Source of the DNA: a virus
Lineage: Duplodnaviria > Heunggongvirae > Uroviricota > Caudoviricetes
Strand: one strand, 5' to 3'
Virus record (IMG/VR): IMGVR_UViG_2675903324_000007
Length of the DNA stretch: 4,603 nucleotides
Position numbers: made by a program. Shown in pieces: positions 1 through 3,000 of the stretch (its first letter is position 1; every line of letters starts with the position of its first letter).

Positions 1-3000
1 GATCTGCATGACTTGCTGGTTGATTATTACGTGTTGGGGGAGACGTTCATGGCGCTGGCACGGAAACATGGGTGCTCTGACACCTGTATAGGTAAACGCC
101 TTCACAAAGCGGAGGGGATTGTTGAAGGCATGCTGATGATGCTGGGAGTGAGGCTTGAGATGGATCGGTATGTTGAGCGTGAATTGCCGGGAGGGAGAAC
201 CTCTGTATTTTATCAGCGAAAAAATAGTTTACGATCGTAAAAATCTGCATATCATGATAAGAGTGGTTACATTGCCACGCTGCTTAACCCGCCGATGCGC
301 GGGTTTTTTTGTACCCAGAATCCTGTGAGCTATACGGAAAGTACACAGAAAGGAAGGTGCGACCACAATTAATAACAAAATCTTAAAAATTGCACATGGC
401 ACTATTAGTTTTCTAAATATTGTGTATTTTTTGTATTGCAGGATGACCCTGTAACGAAGTTTGCGTAACAGCATTTTGCTCTACGAGTTTGCCAGCCTCC
501 CCCAGTGGCTGGCTTTTTTATGTCCGTAACATCCTGTGTATCAATAAATGTTGTTGTCTACGTACGTCAAGTAGTCGCATGAGATCTGACCAGATATGTT
601 AAGGTTGCAGCTCTCTTTGAATATAATTATCATTTTCATTACGTTATTGTTACGTTTATCCGGTGCGCCGTAAAACGCCGTCCTTCAGGGGGTGGAGGAT
701 GTCAAGAATATAGTTATCGTATGGTGCTCAAGGAGTATTGTGTAATATGAAAATAATTATTTTTAGAGTGCTAACTTTTTTCTTTGTTATCTTTTCAGTT
801 AATGTGGTTGCGAAGGAATTTACCTTAGACTTCTCGACTGCAAAGACGTATGTAGATTCGCTGAATGTCATTCGCTCTGCAATAGGTACTCCATTACAGA
901 CTATTTCATCAGGAGGTACGTCTTTACTGATGATTGATAGTGGCACAGGGGATAATTTGTTTGCAGTTGATGTCAGAGGGATAGATCCAGAGGAAGGGCG
1001 GTTTAATAATCTACGGCTTATTGTTGAACGAAATAATTTATATGTGACAGGATTTGTTAACAGGACAAATAATGTTTTTTATCGCTTTGCTGATTTTTCA
1101 CATGTTACCTTTCCAGGTACAACAGCGGTTACATTGTCTGGTGACAGTAGCTATACCACGTTACAGCGTGTTGCAGGGATCAGTCGTACGGGGATGCAGA
1201 TAAATCGCCATTCGTTGACTACTTCTTATCTGGATTTAATGTCGCATAGTGGAACCTCACTGACGCAGTCTGTGGCAAGAGCGATGTTACGGTTTGTTAC
1301 TGTGACAGCTGAAGCTTTACGTTTTCGGCAAATACAGAGGGGATTTCGTACAACACTGGATGATCTCAGTGGGCGTTCTTATGTAATGACTGCTGAAGAT
1401 GTTGATCTTACATTGAACTGGGGAAGGTTGAGTAGTGTCCTGCCTGACTATCATGGACAAGACTCTGTTCGTGTAGGAAGAATTTCTTTTGGAAGCATTA
1501 ATGCAATTCTGGGAAGCGTGGCATTAATACTGAATTGTCATCATCATGCATCGCGAGTTGCCAGAATGGCATCTGATGAGTTTCCTTCTATGTGTCCGGC
1601 AGATGGAAGAGTCCGTGGGATTACGCACAATAAAATATTGTGGGATTCATCCACTCTGGGGGCAATTCTGATGCGCAGAACTATTAGCAGTTGAGGGGGT
1701 AAAATGAAAAAAACATTATTAATAGCTGCATCGCTTTCATTTTTTTCAGCAAGTGCGCTGGCGACGCCTGATTGTGTAACTGGAAAGGTGGAGTATACAA
1801 AATATAATGATGACGATACCTTTACAGTTAAAGTGGGTGATAAAGAATTATTTACCAACAGATGGAATCTTCAGTCTCTTCTTCTCAGTGCGCAAATTAC
1901 GGGGATGACTGTAACCATTAAAACTAATGCCTGTCATAATGGAGGGGGATTCAGCGAAGTTATTTTTCGTTGACTCAGAATAGCTCAGTGAAAATAGCAG
2001 GCGGAGATTCATAAATGTTAAATACATCTCAATTCAGTCAGTTGTTGCCTGTCTGATAATAGATGTGTTAGAAAATTTCTGCATGGTGAATCCCCCTGTG
2101 CGGAGGGGCGACTGGTGAACGGTATGATCTCTTTGATGATCGTAAGCGAGAATACGCGGGTTTGGTGGCACCAGGCCGAACTCACCGGGAGGCACCCGGC
2201 ACCATGCATATGGTTAACAGACACGTAGCGAAGCCCCTCTCCGGAGGGGCTTTTTTTTATGCAGGAAAAACGCAGTGTTGTGAAATGTTGAATTCCTCAC
2301 AATTCAGGTGGTTGATGCTTGCCTGTCTGGCGGGGAGTTGTTAAAAAAATCTCGCATGGTGAATCCCCCTAAGCGGAGGGGCATATCAGCGCAGGTTCTT
2401 CTACTCTACCATTTCTGTGCGGACTCAGGTGCTGATACTGAGTTCACCGGGAGGCACCCGGCACCATGCAGTATACAGAGATTAGGCATACATCCAGGCT
2501 CCTCATCGCAGGAGCCTTTTTACATGTAAAAAAACCGCTCCTGGGAAGAGCGGTTGGCAAGGAAGCAAAGAATAAATAACAAAACGTGAAGTAATTTATT
2601 CAGCACCCTAATAATACCTTAGAGTAATCACCTTGCGCAACTGTAAGGGCATATTTCATCTTTGCGGGCTGTTTTTCTGTGTGGCTTCTGTGTTTCCGGA
2701 GGGCAGCCTGTACCTTTTCTGACTCAGAACATTATCCCGGCCGGGAGGATTCATGGCATTTAAACACTACGATGTGGTCAGGGCGGCATCGCCGTCAGAC
2801 CTTGCTGAACGAATAACTCAAAAACTGAAGGAAGGGTGGCAGCCTTATGGTAGTGCGCTGATTTCGACAGCTGGTTATGGTGCAGAGTTTATCCAGCCAG
2901 TTGTGAGTGAGGGGGAGCTTCCCTCACTTGCAGAGTCAGGCAATCACCCGCATGTTTCAGCGAAGCCTGAAGCAGCGCCGGAATATTACTATGTGATTGC

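What the first reader, a model, noticed from the sequence alone, without database searches (positions are those of the whole stretch)
2031..2521. Two tandem about-270-bp structured modules between stx1B and nanS-p, each with conserved paired ends and its own terminator: candidate small structured RNA genes
Seen directly: two modules (2031..2258 and 2301..2521) share a 16-nt 5' block (GCATGGTGAATCCCCCT) and an identical 27-nt 3' block (TCACCGGGAGGCACCCGGCACCATGCA) while the approximately 65 to 75 nt between them are unrelated. The first 8 nt of the 5' block are the exact reverse complement of the last 8 nt of the 3' block, so the ends can pair as a closing helix. Each module also has two conserved 5-bp hairpins whose loops differ between copies. 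Each is followed about 25 nt later by a strong intrinsic terminator of different sequence (2233..2258; 2497..2521). Conserved pairing ends around a divergent core is what selection on a structured RNA, or on terminal recognition sites of a small element, would produce; a recent simple duplication would not. No convincing ORF or RBS lies inside. Module 1 lies in the stx1 3'UTR with no intervening terminator, so it could be released as a 3'UTR-derived sRNA; module 2 may need its own promoter. Prophage-encoded Hfq-binding sRNAs near stx loci have been reported in EHEC, but I cannot tell from memory whether these modules correspond to any named one.
Basis: partly seen in the sequence, partly recalled or inferred. 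Interest (0 to 1): 0.72.

Follow-up and report, generated by a model that had tools for sequence, protein, structure and literature searches.

The report
Two known STnc100 small-RNA genes

Summary
Both modules match Rfam family RF02076 (STnc100) over the full model: 179 bits for 2052-2262 and 159 bits for 2326-2527, against a curated cut-off of 47. This family is the Hfq-bound sRNA found just after stx2B (EcOnc27 in Sakai, sRNA103 in EDL933). It is also the Rfam-annotated, transcribed copy after stx1B in EDL933, and a relative of the EPEC sRNAs PasD1/PasD2.

I add four points.
- Each module has its own sigma-70-like promoter ending 6 nt before the closing helix. That is where the mapped 5' end of PasD2 lies.
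- In about 200 distinct copies from many Enterobacterales and viral contigs, helices P1-P4 show compensatory changes. A pseudoknot, which I did not find described in the papers I read, links the strand after P3 to the P4 loop.
- The conserved 27-nt block is a recombination joint. Structured cores and tails (linker plus terminator) reassort, and the closest Stx1 phages carry one chimeric copy where this window has two.
- Tandem arrays of 2 to 4 copies occur in about 1% of complete E. coli genomes.

Most likely these are two independent Hfq-type sRNA genes whose terminators also shield the downstream genes in lysogens. Their targets are unknown. Interest is low to moderate.

The parts
2013..2055 (+). 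Upstream conserved block of unit 1. It starts the roughly 270-bp repeat unit and contains the -35 element.
   Evidence: Direct repeat D2: 2013-2055 versus 2283-2325, 77% identical. Measured back from the terminator, the 5' ends of the 235/247-nt EcOnc27 species would fall here. That placement is an inference.
2045..2074 (+). Predicted sigma-70 promoter of module 1: TTGCCT, 18-nt spacer, TAGAAA, with TGT as an extended -10. Predicted start is near 2081.
   Evidence: Read from the sequence. Across 99 copies, promoter-like matches of at least 9 of 12 cluster at this offset: 21 copies, against 0-1 at other offsets. PasD2's mapped 5' end is the first base of the homologous helix.
2081..2207 (+). 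Structured domain of module 1.
- P1: 2081-2088 with 2200-2207.
- P2: 2092-2096 with 2102-2103 and 2105-2107; A2104 is bulged.
- P3: 2108-2110 with 2155-2157.
- Variable hairpin domain: 2111-2154.
- P4: 2158-2165 with 2176-2183.
- Pseudoknot: 2112-2117 (CUGGUG) with 2169-2174 (CACCAG).
- P5: 2185-2189 with 2195-2199.
   Evidence: Rfam RF02076, 179.2 bits. The minimum-energy fold recovers P1, P2, P4 and P5. Covariation supports the helices. The pseudoknot passes a permutation test.
2208..2229 (+). Single-stranded linker of module 1 (AUAUGGUUAACAGACACGUAGC). Candidate seed region by analogy with PasD.
   Evidence: The PasD seed UGUGAG and its RIL-seq chimeras lie in the equivalent linker and 3' end. 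In the family, the median distance from about 4 nt past P1 to the terminator stem is 26 nt. The seed assignment is an inference.
2230..2258 (+). Intrinsic terminator of module 1. It is also the first terminator after stx1B.
   Evidence: 10-bp stem with 6 G-C pairs and a T run. No terminator-like site lies between 1974 and 2229.
2283..2325 (+). Upstream conserved block of unit 2.
   Evidence: Direct repeat D2.
2319..2347 (+). Predicted sigma-70 promoter of module 2: TTGCCT, 17-nt spacer, TAAAAA, with TGT as an extended -10. Predicted start is near 2354.
   Evidence: Read from the sequence. The geometry matches the rest of the family.
2354..2469 (+). Structured domain of module 2.
- P1: 2354-2361 with 2462-2469.
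- P2: 2365-2369 with 2375-2376 and 2378-2380; A2377 is bulged.
- P3: 2381-2383 with 2418-2420.
- Variable domain: 2384-2417.
- P4: 2421-2428 with 2438-2445.
- Pseudoknot: 2385-2390 (AUCAGC) with 2431-2436 (GCUGAU).
- P5: 2447-2451 with 2457-2461.
   Evidence: Rfam RF02076, 159.2 bits. Fold. Covariation and pseudoknot tests.
2470..2495 (+). Linker of module 2 (AGUAUACAGAGAUUAGGCAUACAUCC), of the same type as the EcOnc27 linker.
   Evidence: The reverse complement of the published EcOnc27 northern probe matches 2465-2489 (25 nt) exactly. This is tail type 5 in the mosaic analysis.
2496..2521 (+). Intrinsic terminator of module 2.
   Evidence: 8-bp stem with 5 G-C pairs and a T run.
2182..2208 (+). 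Conserved 27-nt block (P5 plus the 3' strand of P1), copy 1. It acts as a recombination joint.
   Evidence: Identical to 2444-2470. Phage GER2's single copy switches from module 1 sequence to module 2 sequence within this block. Cores and tails reassort across it.
2444..2470 (+). Conserved 27-nt block, copy 2.
2527..2604 (-). Probable convergent partner sRNA on the minus strand, resembling EcOnc42. It has a hairpin at 2570-2601, a terminator stem at 2555-2533 and a T run to about 2527. A possible promoter is TTGCGC (2640-2635), 18-nt spacer, TATTAT (2616-2611).
   Evidence: Minus-strand terminator and inverted repeats I5 and I15. The 5' part, CACGUUUUGUUAUUUAUUCUUUGC, resembles the Sp15 region that holds EcOnc42. 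It also resembles an EPEC RIL-seq sRNA printed. There is no AsxR or AgvB match. The ends are inferred.

Best explanation
The region holds two adjacent, independently transcribed genes of the STnc100 small-RNA family (Rfam RF02076). This is the family of EcOnc27/sRNA103, and PasD is a relative.

Each gene has four parts:
- A sigma-70 promoter whose -10 element ends 6 nt before the closing helix.
- A structured 5' domain of about 115-127 nt. It has five helices around a junction, plus a pseudoknot between the strand after P3 and the loop of P4.
- A single-stranded linker of about 22-26 nt.
- An intrinsic terminator whose hairpin and U tail form the Hfq-binding end.

The predicted primary RNAs are about 178 nt (2081-2258) and 168 nt (2354-2521). 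Longer forms that start near 2013 and 2283, or that are cut from the stx1 transcript, are possible.

The RNAs most likely act in trans as Hfq-dependent base-pairing regulators. Target choice would be set by the linker, which differs between the two modules, and perhaps also by the variable domain. The conserved structured head most likely stabilises the RNA by burying its 5' end in a helix, or binds a partner that is not yet known.

In cis, the two terminators, together with a convergent one on the other strand, stop transcription from the stx1 promoter and from the sRNA promoters. In a lysogen this keeps it from reaching nanS-p and the lysis genes. Q-modified polymerase reads through them after induction.

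The two copies are different alleles brought together by recombination at the conserved blocks.

Shown here: family membership, fold, promoter geometry, genomic context and mosaicism. Inferred from homologues: expression, Hfq binding and seed position in this particular window.
For: - Family membership: full-length RF02076 hits at 179 and 159 bits against a cut-off of 47.
- Expression and Hfq binding in homologues: EcOnc27 after stx2B has an Hfq-CRAC peak and northern bands of about 235/247 nt, and the 247-nt form is destabilised without hfq. With the coordinate offset I derived from AsxR, that peak covers P5, the 3' strand of P1, the linker and the terminator. The EDL933 copy after stx1B (STnc100_10) and ten others have RNA-seq reads, and STnc100_4 is northern-positive.
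- 5' end: PasD1/2 are 172-173-nt Hfq-dependent RNAs. The mapped PasD2 5' end is the first base of the homologous helix, and its seed lies in the linker.
- Promoters: matches of at least 9 of 12 cluster right before P1 in 21 of 99 copies, against 0-1 at other offsets.
- Size: the predicted length from P1 to the U tract has a median of 171 nt in the family.
- Structure: 95.9% and 96.2% of cells are paired, against 36-57% when partners are slid. 13 and 15 of 25 pairs show changes on both sides, and 0 of 500 shuffles reach the observed values.
- Pseudoknot: z of -12 to -18, with 0 of 1000 permutations as low.
- Context: the Q antiterminator lies upstream and holin, lysozyme and Rz lie downstream across genera. 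The window itself has Q, stx1A, stx1B and a SASA esterase.
- Mosaicism: the phage GER2 copy is a chimera of the two modules, and all four core-by-tail combinations exist.
Against: - There are no expression data for this window. Its exact tandem is absent from the 50,697 phage records and matches E. coli complete genomes at only about 89% identity.
- The EcOnc27 northern sizes (235/247 nt) are longer than a start at P1 predicts (about 171 nt). For this subtype the main 5' end may therefore lie about 65 nt upstream or come from processing.
- The window promoters are weak matches, 4 of 6 in each hexamer.
- Only 50 of 98 family copies have a clear terminator. Some run directly into an ORF, so the structured head is not always part of a free-standing sRNA.
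- P5 and several junction bases are nearly invariant. A mere stabiliser would not need that.
- No direct target is established for any STnc100 member. The sRNA103 effects on fimZ and espA have no known mechanism.
- STnc100_10 showed high ribosome-footprint coverage in EDL933, with a ribosomal coverage value (RCV) of 3.21.
Confidence: 0.85

Rival explanations
1. The modules act only in cis. They are the structured 3' end and terminator cassette of the stx1 'moron' (a gene cassette inserted into the prophage). They stabilise the stx1 mRNA 3' end and insulate nanS-p and the lysis genes. Any released RNA is a by-product with no regulatory role.
For: - Module 1's terminator is the first one after stx1B.
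- Family copies always sit between Q and the lysis genes.
- No direct target is validated for any STnc100 RNA.
Against: - A terminator does not need a 120-nt domain with covarying helices, a pseudoknot and its own promoter.
- PasD makes many Hfq-dependent RNA-RNA contacts in RIL-seq.
- EcOnc27 is Hfq-bound and loses stability without hfq.
- Copies also occur in prophages without a moron, directly upstream of the holin gene.
Confidence: 0.1
2. The conserved five-helix pseudoknotted head is a sensor or a specific protein-binding or ligand-binding module, riboswitch-like or a decoy. It controls its own terminator or a host or phage factor. Base-pairing through Hfq would then be secondary.
For: - Junction and loop bases are near-invariant, and P5 is invariant even when it was not used to find the copies.
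- A structured domain followed about 25 nt later by a terminator is the layout of a terminating riboswitch.
- Some copies lack a terminator and lead into ORFs or a KdgM porin gene.
- Tandem copies resemble tandem riboswitches.
Against: - No conserved alternative (anti-terminator) pairing exists. Module 1's terminator resembles P2, but module 2's does not. Tails reassort freely with cores.
- Downstream genes are heterogeneous.
- Each unit has its own promoter and yields a discrete stable RNA in homologues.
- No riboswitch family in Rfam matches.
Confidence: 0.15
3. The blocks are ends of a DNA repeat, either a MITE-like element or phage 'linker' sequences kept because they promote recombination. 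The RNA fold is incidental.
For: - The 27-nt block clearly serves as a recombination joint.
- The two end blocks are inverted repeats of 8-9 bp.
- The family is multi-copy, with up to 11 places per E. coli genome.
Against: - Pairing is kept through compensatory changes while the sequence changes, in P1, P2, P3, P4 and the pseudoknot. Selection on DNA repeats does not produce that.
- Copies sit at one syntenic position in prophages and are not scattered.
- The inverted repeats lie inside a promoter-to-terminator unit, and I noticed no flanking target-site duplication in the sequence.
- The RNAs are detected experimentally.
Confidence: 0.03
4. The modules encode small proteins. Candidates are the ORFs at 2162-2344 and 2308-2529, or the ATG at 2210.
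For: - ORFs of 60 and 73 codons overlap the modules.
- Phage GER2 annotates a hypothetical protein over its copy.
- STnc100_10 had a ribosome coverage value of 3.21 in EDL933.
Against: - Variable-domain lengths range from 22 to 52 nt with no multiple-of-three pattern, and whole segments are swapped.
- The substitution pattern preserves base pairs rather than codons.
- The ORFs run through terminators and across unit borders, which are absent in single-copy relatives.
- I saw no convincing ribosome-binding site.
Confidence: 0.02

Closest known systems
STnc100 (Rfam RF02076, 'Gammaproteobacterial sRNA STnc100')
   Same: Both modules match the whole 206-position model at 179 and 159 bits. They share its closing helix, hairpins, terminator and prophage context between Q and the lysis genes.
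   Different: - Nothing essential differs.
- My covariation data favour a bulged register for hairpin P2: 99.4% paired and 21 compensatory cells, against 86.5% and 2 for the Rfam register.
- The data add a three-pair helix P3 and a pseudoknot that the Rfam structure line does not show.
- If PasD2's 5' end is typical, the first 29 or so model positions cover the promoter.
EcOnc27 (Sakai Sp5) = sRNA103 (EDL933), the Hfq-bound sRNA just after stx2B
   Same: - It belongs to the same family; the Sp5 copy scores 207.7 bits.
- It holds the same position directly after a toxin B-subunit gene and has a convergent partner sRNA.
- Module 2 carries the EcOnc27-type linker, with 25 of 25 nt matching the published probe.
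- Module 1 carries an EcOnc27-like P4 and pseudoknot (CUGGUG with a CCAG-containing loop).
   Different: - Here the toxin is Stx1, and there are two copies instead of one.
- Neither module has EcOnc27's variable hairpin.
- The convergent partner is not AsxR.
STnc100_10 of EDL933 and the copy in VT1-Sakai (Sp15) after stx1B
   Same: From the upstream block through the 27-nt block, module 1 differs from the VT1-Sakai copy at only one base, in the -35 element (TTGCCT here, TTGCCG there). The EDL933 copy is annotated by Rfam and has RNA-seq reads.
   Different: Those prophages have a single copy with a different linker (tail type 0). The window has tail type 2 on module 1 and adds module 2.
PasD1/PasD2 (EPEC E2348/69)
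   Same: - They start with the same GCAUGGUGAAUCC and have the same overall layout and size class (172-173 nt).
- They have a promoter directly before the helix.
- PasD2 sits just upstream of a SASA esterase gene, as module 2 does.
   Different: - PasD lacks hairpin P5 and falls below the Rfam cut-off.
- Its linker, which holds the seed UGUGAG, is unrelated to both window linkers.
AsxR/AgvB anti-sRNAs and EcOnc42 (convergent partners in prophage sRNA 'dyads')
   Same: The window keeps the published dyad layout: sense STnc100-type gene(s) facing a short minus-strand sRNA between the late promoter and the lysis genes. The minus-strand candidate resembles the Sp15 region that holds EcOnc42.
   Different: The modules themselves are not anti-sRNAs. 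They are three times longer, lie on the other strand and have a different fold. There is no RF02702 or RF02703 match in the window.
Class II tRNA cloverleaf (a resemblance in shape only)
   Same: The order of helices around one junction is the same. A closing helix of 7-8 bp stacks directly on a 5-bp hairpin at the 3' side. Then come a 5' hairpin, a central arm and a long extra arm.
   Different: - ARAGORN finds no tRNA.
- The loops have the wrong sizes (5 nt), and there is no CCA end or anticodon loop.
- The tertiary contact is a pseudoknot, not a D-loop to T-loop contact.
- The resemblance comes from my own recall and reading, not from a test.

Membership tests
STnc100 (Rfam RF02076) | Covariance-model score at or above the curated gathering score (47 bits), over the whole model. 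| tested here: met
   179.2 bits (2052-2262) and 159.2 bits (2326-2527), both covering model positions 1-206 of 206.
STnc100 (Rfam RF02076) | A closing helix enclosing internal hairpins, followed by an intrinsic terminator. | tested here: met
   Present in both modules. Helices P1-P4 are supported by compensatory changes in two independently gathered sets. P5 never varies, so covariation says nothing about it.
STnc100 (Rfam RF02076) | Prophage location (my own criterion, based on where family copies were found here). | tested here: met
   The window has the Q C-terminus, stx1A, stx1B and a SASA esterase. Family copies across genera lie between Q and holin/lysozyme/Rz.
STnc100 (Rfam RF02076) | Expressed as a discrete small RNA. 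| not testable with these tools
   Evidence exists only for homologues: EDL933 RNA-seq and a northern, the EcOnc27 northern and Hfq-CRAC, and PasD.
EcOnc27 / sRNA103 subtype | Same RNA sequence as the Sp5/933W copy after stx2B. | tested here: not met
   Neither module equals the Sp5 copy. Module 2 shares its linker, and module 1 shares its pseudoknot and P4 type. The variable domains differ. The modules are relatives, not the same allele.
PasD | PasD-type sequence with seed UGUGAG in the linker and no P5 hairpin. | tested here: not met
   Both modules have P5 and unrelated linkers.
AsxR/AgvB anti-sRNA family (RF02703 / RF02702) | RNA of 51-60 nt with a conserved 3' region of about 42 nt, and a match to the Rfam model. 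| tested here: not met
   No match up to E = 1 on the window or E = 10 on 2470-2760. The same search finds AsxR in Sakai Sp5 at 88 bits.
tRNA / tmRNA | Recognised cloverleaf with an anticodon arm. | tested here: not met
   ARAGORN finds 0 genes. There is no tRNA-clan Rfam match in the window.
Transcription-terminating riboswitch | A conserved aptamer whose 3' strand competes with the terminator through a conserved alternative pairing, upstream of a consistent class of genes. | tested here: not met
   Terminators and linkers are interchangeable among identical cores. Similarity between P2 and the terminator exists only in module 1. Downstream genes vary. Ligand binding cannot be tested here.
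MITE / transposable repeat | Terminal inverted repeats at the element's ends, target-site duplication and dispersed insertion sites. | tested here: not met
   The inverted repeats are 8-9 bp and lie inside a promoter-to-terminator unit. Copies keep one syntenic position. Pairing is kept by compensatory change.

The most novel reading that the evidence does not exclude
The STnc100 'head' may be a dedicated functional module rather than a passive scaffold. It is a promoter-proximal five-helix fold locked by a pseudoknot, with near-invariant junction bases and an invariant CCGGGAGGCACCCGG hairpin. It would bind a specific protein or small molecule, or mimic a tRNA-like substrate. Lambdoid prophages across Enterobacterales would then fuse it, by recombination at the 27-nt block, to interchangeable output tails: seed plus terminator, or whole mRNA leaders such as a KdgM porin gene. 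Tandem arrays like the one in this window would be batteries of such heads carrying different outputs.
Probability: 0.25. Interest if true: 0.6.

Novelty: already known. Interest (0 to 1): 0.3.

Why it matters
These RNAs sit directly beside the Shiga toxin genes.

- Sequence variants in the equivalent RNA region after stx2 were recently reported as the strongest genomic predictors of haemolytic uraemic syndrome.
- The RNA was also found in outer-membrane vesicles of toxin-producing strains.
- The family's function is still listed as unknown.

For this window the practical message is annotation. The stretch between stx1B and nanS-p is not empty. It holds two sRNA genes on the plus strand and probably a third on the minus strand.

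The extra results are leads for anyone studying how Stx prophages rewire host regulation. They are promoter placement, the pseudoknotted fold, the exchange of cores and tails at the 27-nt block, and arrays of up to four copies. They do not make this locus a new kind of element.

Tried and rejected
- IpeX link: I suspected that IpeX of the K-12 DLP12 prophage belonged to this family. Rfam finds no STnc100 match in the quuD-nmpC-essD region, so I dropped the idea.
- AsxR/AgvB partner: I expected the minus-strand partner to be one of these. There is no match even with lax filters. It looks like EcOnc42 instead.
- tRNA or tmRNA: ARAGORN finds none.
- Local targets: the linkers pair with the stx1A, stx1B and nanS-p ribosome-binding regions no better than shuffled linkers do.
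- Complementarity to stx1B: an 11-nt perfect complement exists between the conserved 5' block and stx1B 1943-1953, and only 2-3 of 200 shuffles reach it. The same was reported for stx2B. I rate it as probably coincidental. That block is buried in P1 and P2, and most family members sit in prophages without stx.
- Riboswitch-type switching between the head and the terminator: not conserved.
- Rfam register of hairpin P2: less well supported than the bulged register.
- First pseudoknot permutation run: it was spoiled by empty segments. I repeated it with a length filter.
- Source of the window: neither the phage collection nor the E. coli complete genomes hold the exact tandem.
- Off-family matches: the 19-nt search pattern also hit Streptomyces and other distant genomes without the 5' block. 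I treated these as chance matches and excluded them.
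Full report
**1. Observation.**
- The 5' block GCATGGTGAATCCCCCT (17 nt) lies at 2081-2097 and 2354-2370.
- An identical 27-nt block, TCACCGGGAGGCACCCGGCACCATGCA, lies at 2182-2208 and 2444-2470.
- The first 8 nt of the 5' block pair with the last part of the 3' block.
- The 72 and 61 nt between the blocks cannot be aligned between the modules.
- Two different intrinsic terminators follow, at 2230-2258 and 2496-2521.
- The repeat unit in fact begins at 2013 and 2283, where a 43-nt block is 77% identical.
- As RNA, both modules fold much better than shuffled sequence, with z of -4.6 and -3.4.

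**2. Identity.** A scan of the window against Rfam gives two full-length matches to RF02076, STnc100: 2052-2262 at 179.2 bits and 2326-2527 at 159.2 bits. The curated cut-off is 47 bits. No tRNA is found. The flanking genes are the C-terminus of antiterminator Q, stx1A (747-1694), stx1B (1704-1973) and a DUF1737/SASA/DUF6645 esterase of the NanS-p type starting at 2753.

**3. What is published.**
- STnc100 is one of the most frequently annotated sRNA families, and its function is listed as unknown.
- EDL933 has 11 Rfam-annotated copies, all with RNA-seq reads. STnc100_10 starts about 80 nt after stx1B, STnc100_3 follows stx2B, and STnc100_4 was confirmed by northern.
- In Sakai, Hfq crosslinking defined EcOnc27 just 3' of stx2B. 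Its northern bands are about 235/247 nt, and the 247-nt form is destabilised without hfq. It faces the anti-sRNA AsxR.
- The same RNA is sRNA103 in EDL933, where overexpression raised fimZ and espA transcripts.
- Such 'dyads' of Hfq-binding sRNAs lie between the late promoter and the lysis genes of at least eight Sakai prophages.
- In 2025, STnc_100 was reported 75 nt after the stx2 operon and in outer-membrane vesicles. Variants in this region were the strongest predictors of haemolytic uraemic syndrome.
- A 2026 preprint links PasD1/PasD2 of EPEC to STnc100 by structure. It places PasD2 next to the sialic-acid esterase gene.

**4. Transcript ends.** PasD2 was defined by RNA-seq and northern as 741157-741328, 172 nt. 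In the genome this starts exactly at the G of GCATGGTGAATCC, the first base of the closing helix. TTGACT, a 17-nt spacer and TATTAA lie upstream, and the RNA ends in the terminator U tract.

I collected 99 distinct copies from one-genome-per-species contigs. In these, promoter-like matches of at least 9 of 12 occur almost only with the -10 ending 0-11 nt before the helix: 21 copies, against 0-1 at other offsets.

The window fits this geometry:
- Module 1: TTGCCT (2045-2050), 18-nt spacer, TAGAAA (2069-2074).
- Module 2: TTGCCT (2319-2324), 17-nt spacer, TAAAAA (2342-2347).
- Both have TGT just upstream of the -10.
- The predicted starts are near 2081 and 2354, giving RNAs of about 178 and 168 nt.
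- Where a terminator is found, the family median is 171 nt.

One caveat applies. The EcOnc27 bands of 235/247 nt imply a 5' end about 65 nt further upstream, at the start of the repeat unit, or processing from the toxin transcript. No terminator lies between stx1B and 2230.

**5. Fold.** On the 99-copy alignment I tested five helices.
- Overall, 95.9% of cells are paired, against 42-47% when partners are slid by 1-3 columns.
- 13 of 25 pairs change on both sides. There are 268 compensatory cells, against 74 ± 10 in shuffles (0 of 500).
- P1 switches among AUGGUG/CACCAU, GUGGUG/CACCAC, GCGGUG/CACCGC, ACGGUG/CACCGU and CAGGUG/CACCUG.
- P2 is best read as 3 + 2 pairs with one bulged base: 99.4% paired and 21 compensatory cells. 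The Rfam register gives 86.5% and 2.
- A three-pair helix P3 (G-C, C-G, N-N') closes the variable domain.
- P4 is a hairpin of variable sequence just before P5.

A second set of 133 hits came from viral contigs chosen by the 5' block only and aligned with my own model. It gives 96.2% paired and 15 pairs with changes on both sides. This alignment was fitted to the model and so leans towards it. P5 (CCGGG/CCCGG) stays essentially invariant even there, so it is constrained as sequence, and covariation says nothing about it.

The 5-7 nt after P3's 5' strand pair with the P4 loop:
- Module 1: CUGGUG 2112-2117 with CACCAG 2169-2174.
- Module 2: AUCAGC 2385-2390 with GCUGAU 2431-2436.
- Each copy's own partner gives a mean duplex energy of -9.3 to -10.4 kcal/mol. 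Permuted partners give -5.9 to -6.9 (z of -12 to -18; 0 of 1000).
- Among E. coli-type copies, eight P4 loop types go with matching upstream strands.

I did not find this pseudoknot in the papers I read. The Rfam structure line and the preprint's RNAalifold model cannot show one.

**6. Mosaic and tandem state.** The closest Stx1 phages (GER2, Ss-VASD, AU5Stx1, VT1-Sakai and others) cover the window except for about 270 bp.
- Phage GER2's single copy equals module 1 up to the 27-nt block and module 2 after it. The two arrangements differ by one 262-bp unit bounded by that block.
- VT1-Sakai has module 1's core with another tail.
- Among 57 distinct E. coli-type copies I count 19 variable-domain types, 8 P4 types and 14 tail types in 28 combinations.
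- Module 1 is (1,1,2) and module 2 is (3,0,5). Both (1,1,5) and (3,0,2) also exist, so all four core-by-tail combinations occur.
- The junction between the two modules has no match in 50,697 phage records. It occurs at 89% identity in 74 of 5,426 complete E. coli genomes.
- Strain JNE170426 has three tandem copies and RM10466 has four, in each case just upstream of the esterase gene.
- Tandem copies are also seen in Superficieibacter, Citrobacter and Rahnella.

**7. Context across genera.** I clustered the neighbours of 106 copies. A P21-type holin, phage lysozyme and Rz lie downstream on the same strand, and a Q antiterminator lies upstream.

A separate group of 12 loci (Kosakonia, Klebsiella, Raoultella and others) has the element about 190 nt upstream of a KdgM-family porin gene, without a strong terminator. 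Only 50 of 98 copies have a clear terminator within 140 nt, against 22 of 98 in the upstream control. Some run straight into an ORF.

**8. Mechanism.** I judge the modules to be two independent Hfq-type sRNA genes.
- After I corrected for a shift of about 136 nt between genome versions, using AsxR as the anchor, the EcOnc27 Hfq peak covers P5, the 3' strand of P1, the linker and the terminator.
- PasD's seed and its RIL-seq chimeras lie in the linker and 3' end.
- By analogy, the linkers 2208-2229 and 2470-2495 are the likely seeds. They are unrelated to each other, which points to two target sets.
- The head may protect the 5' end or bind a partner. This is inference.
- In cis, the terminators should block transcription into nanS-p and the lysis genes in lysogens. 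This follows from what is established about Q antitermination in lambdoid phages.
- I found no credible local target.

**9. Verdict.** The novelty class is 'already known'. The new details are two alleles in tandem after stx1, promoter placement, the pseudoknot and core-tail reassortment. They refine the picture of the family but do not change its kind.

Noticed in passing
window 2527-2640, minus strand: A convergent small-RNA candidate lies on the minus strand. It has a terminator stem at 2555-2533 with a T run to about 2527, a hairpin at 2570-2601, and a possible promoter (TTGCGC, 18-nt spacer, TATTAT) at 2640-2611. Its 5' part resembles the Sakai Sp15 region that holds EcOnc42 and an EPEC RIL-seq sRNA (E2348C_1409.E2348C_1408.IGR), but its terminator is different. 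It is not AsxR or AgvB.
   Followed up: partly
window 228-305 and 491-520: The promoter-like site at 228-255 and the terminators at 286-305 and about 491-520 coincide with the late promoter pR' and the two tR' terminators annotated in VT1-Sakai. This is the stretch that yields the StxS sRNA according to the literature.
   Followed up: partly
window 1943-1953 versus 2087-2097 and 2360-2370: An 11-nt perfect complement exists between stx1B (AGGGGGATTCA) and the conserved 5' block of both modules (UGAAUCCCCCU). Only 2-3 of 200 shuffles reach this length. The same was published for stx2B. It is probably coincidental, because the block is buried in helices P1 and P2.
   Followed up: partly
L125 (Sakai Sp5) 1268436-1268451: By my count, the two variants reported as predictors of haemolytic uraemic syndrome (+90 T/C and +103 T deletion after stx2B) fall on the TGT extended -10 and on the T run between the predicted -10 (TAAAAA) and the first base of P1. 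This suggests they alter sRNA transcription.
   Followed up: no
L079, L015, L062, L053, L121 and seven other loci (Kosakonia, Klebsiella, Raoultella, Citrobacter, Enterobacter): A conserved chromosomal variant of the structured head lies about 190 nt upstream of a KdgM-family porin gene and a periplasmic pectate lyase gene. A divergent LuxR-type regulator gene is nearby, and there is no strong terminator. It could be an mRNA leader rather than a free sRNA.
   Followed up: partly
L011 (Raoultella) and L013 (Pantoea): These copies lack a terminator. The structured head is followed within about 45 nt by a ribosome-binding site and a start codon. In L011 this opens a small lipoprotein-like ORF.
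   Followed up: no
L127 (E. coli RM10466) 2863-3760; L003 (JNE170426) 2728-3459: Arrays of four and three tandem STnc100 copies, with a period of 259-270 bp, sit directly upstream of the SASA esterase gene in prophages without stx. A further copy lies about 2 kb upstream.
   Followed up: partly
L001 (phage GER2) 2192-2203 and 2363-2524: The GenBank record annotates an 'attR' feature just after stx1B and a hypothetical protein that overlaps the STnc100 copy. The latter is probably a mis-annotation of the sRNA gene.
   Followed up: no
alignment A4, columns 156-188: The P5 loop region spans 33 insert columns in the model-fitted alignment of viral copies, so some copies appear to carry an insertion there, while the stem stays invariant.
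   Followed up: no
L126 (E2348/69) 741157-741328: PasD2 looks like an STnc100 copy that lost 7 nt (CACCCGG) and with them hairpin P5, while keeping GGGAGG. That may explain why it falls below the Rfam cut-off.
   Followed up: partly
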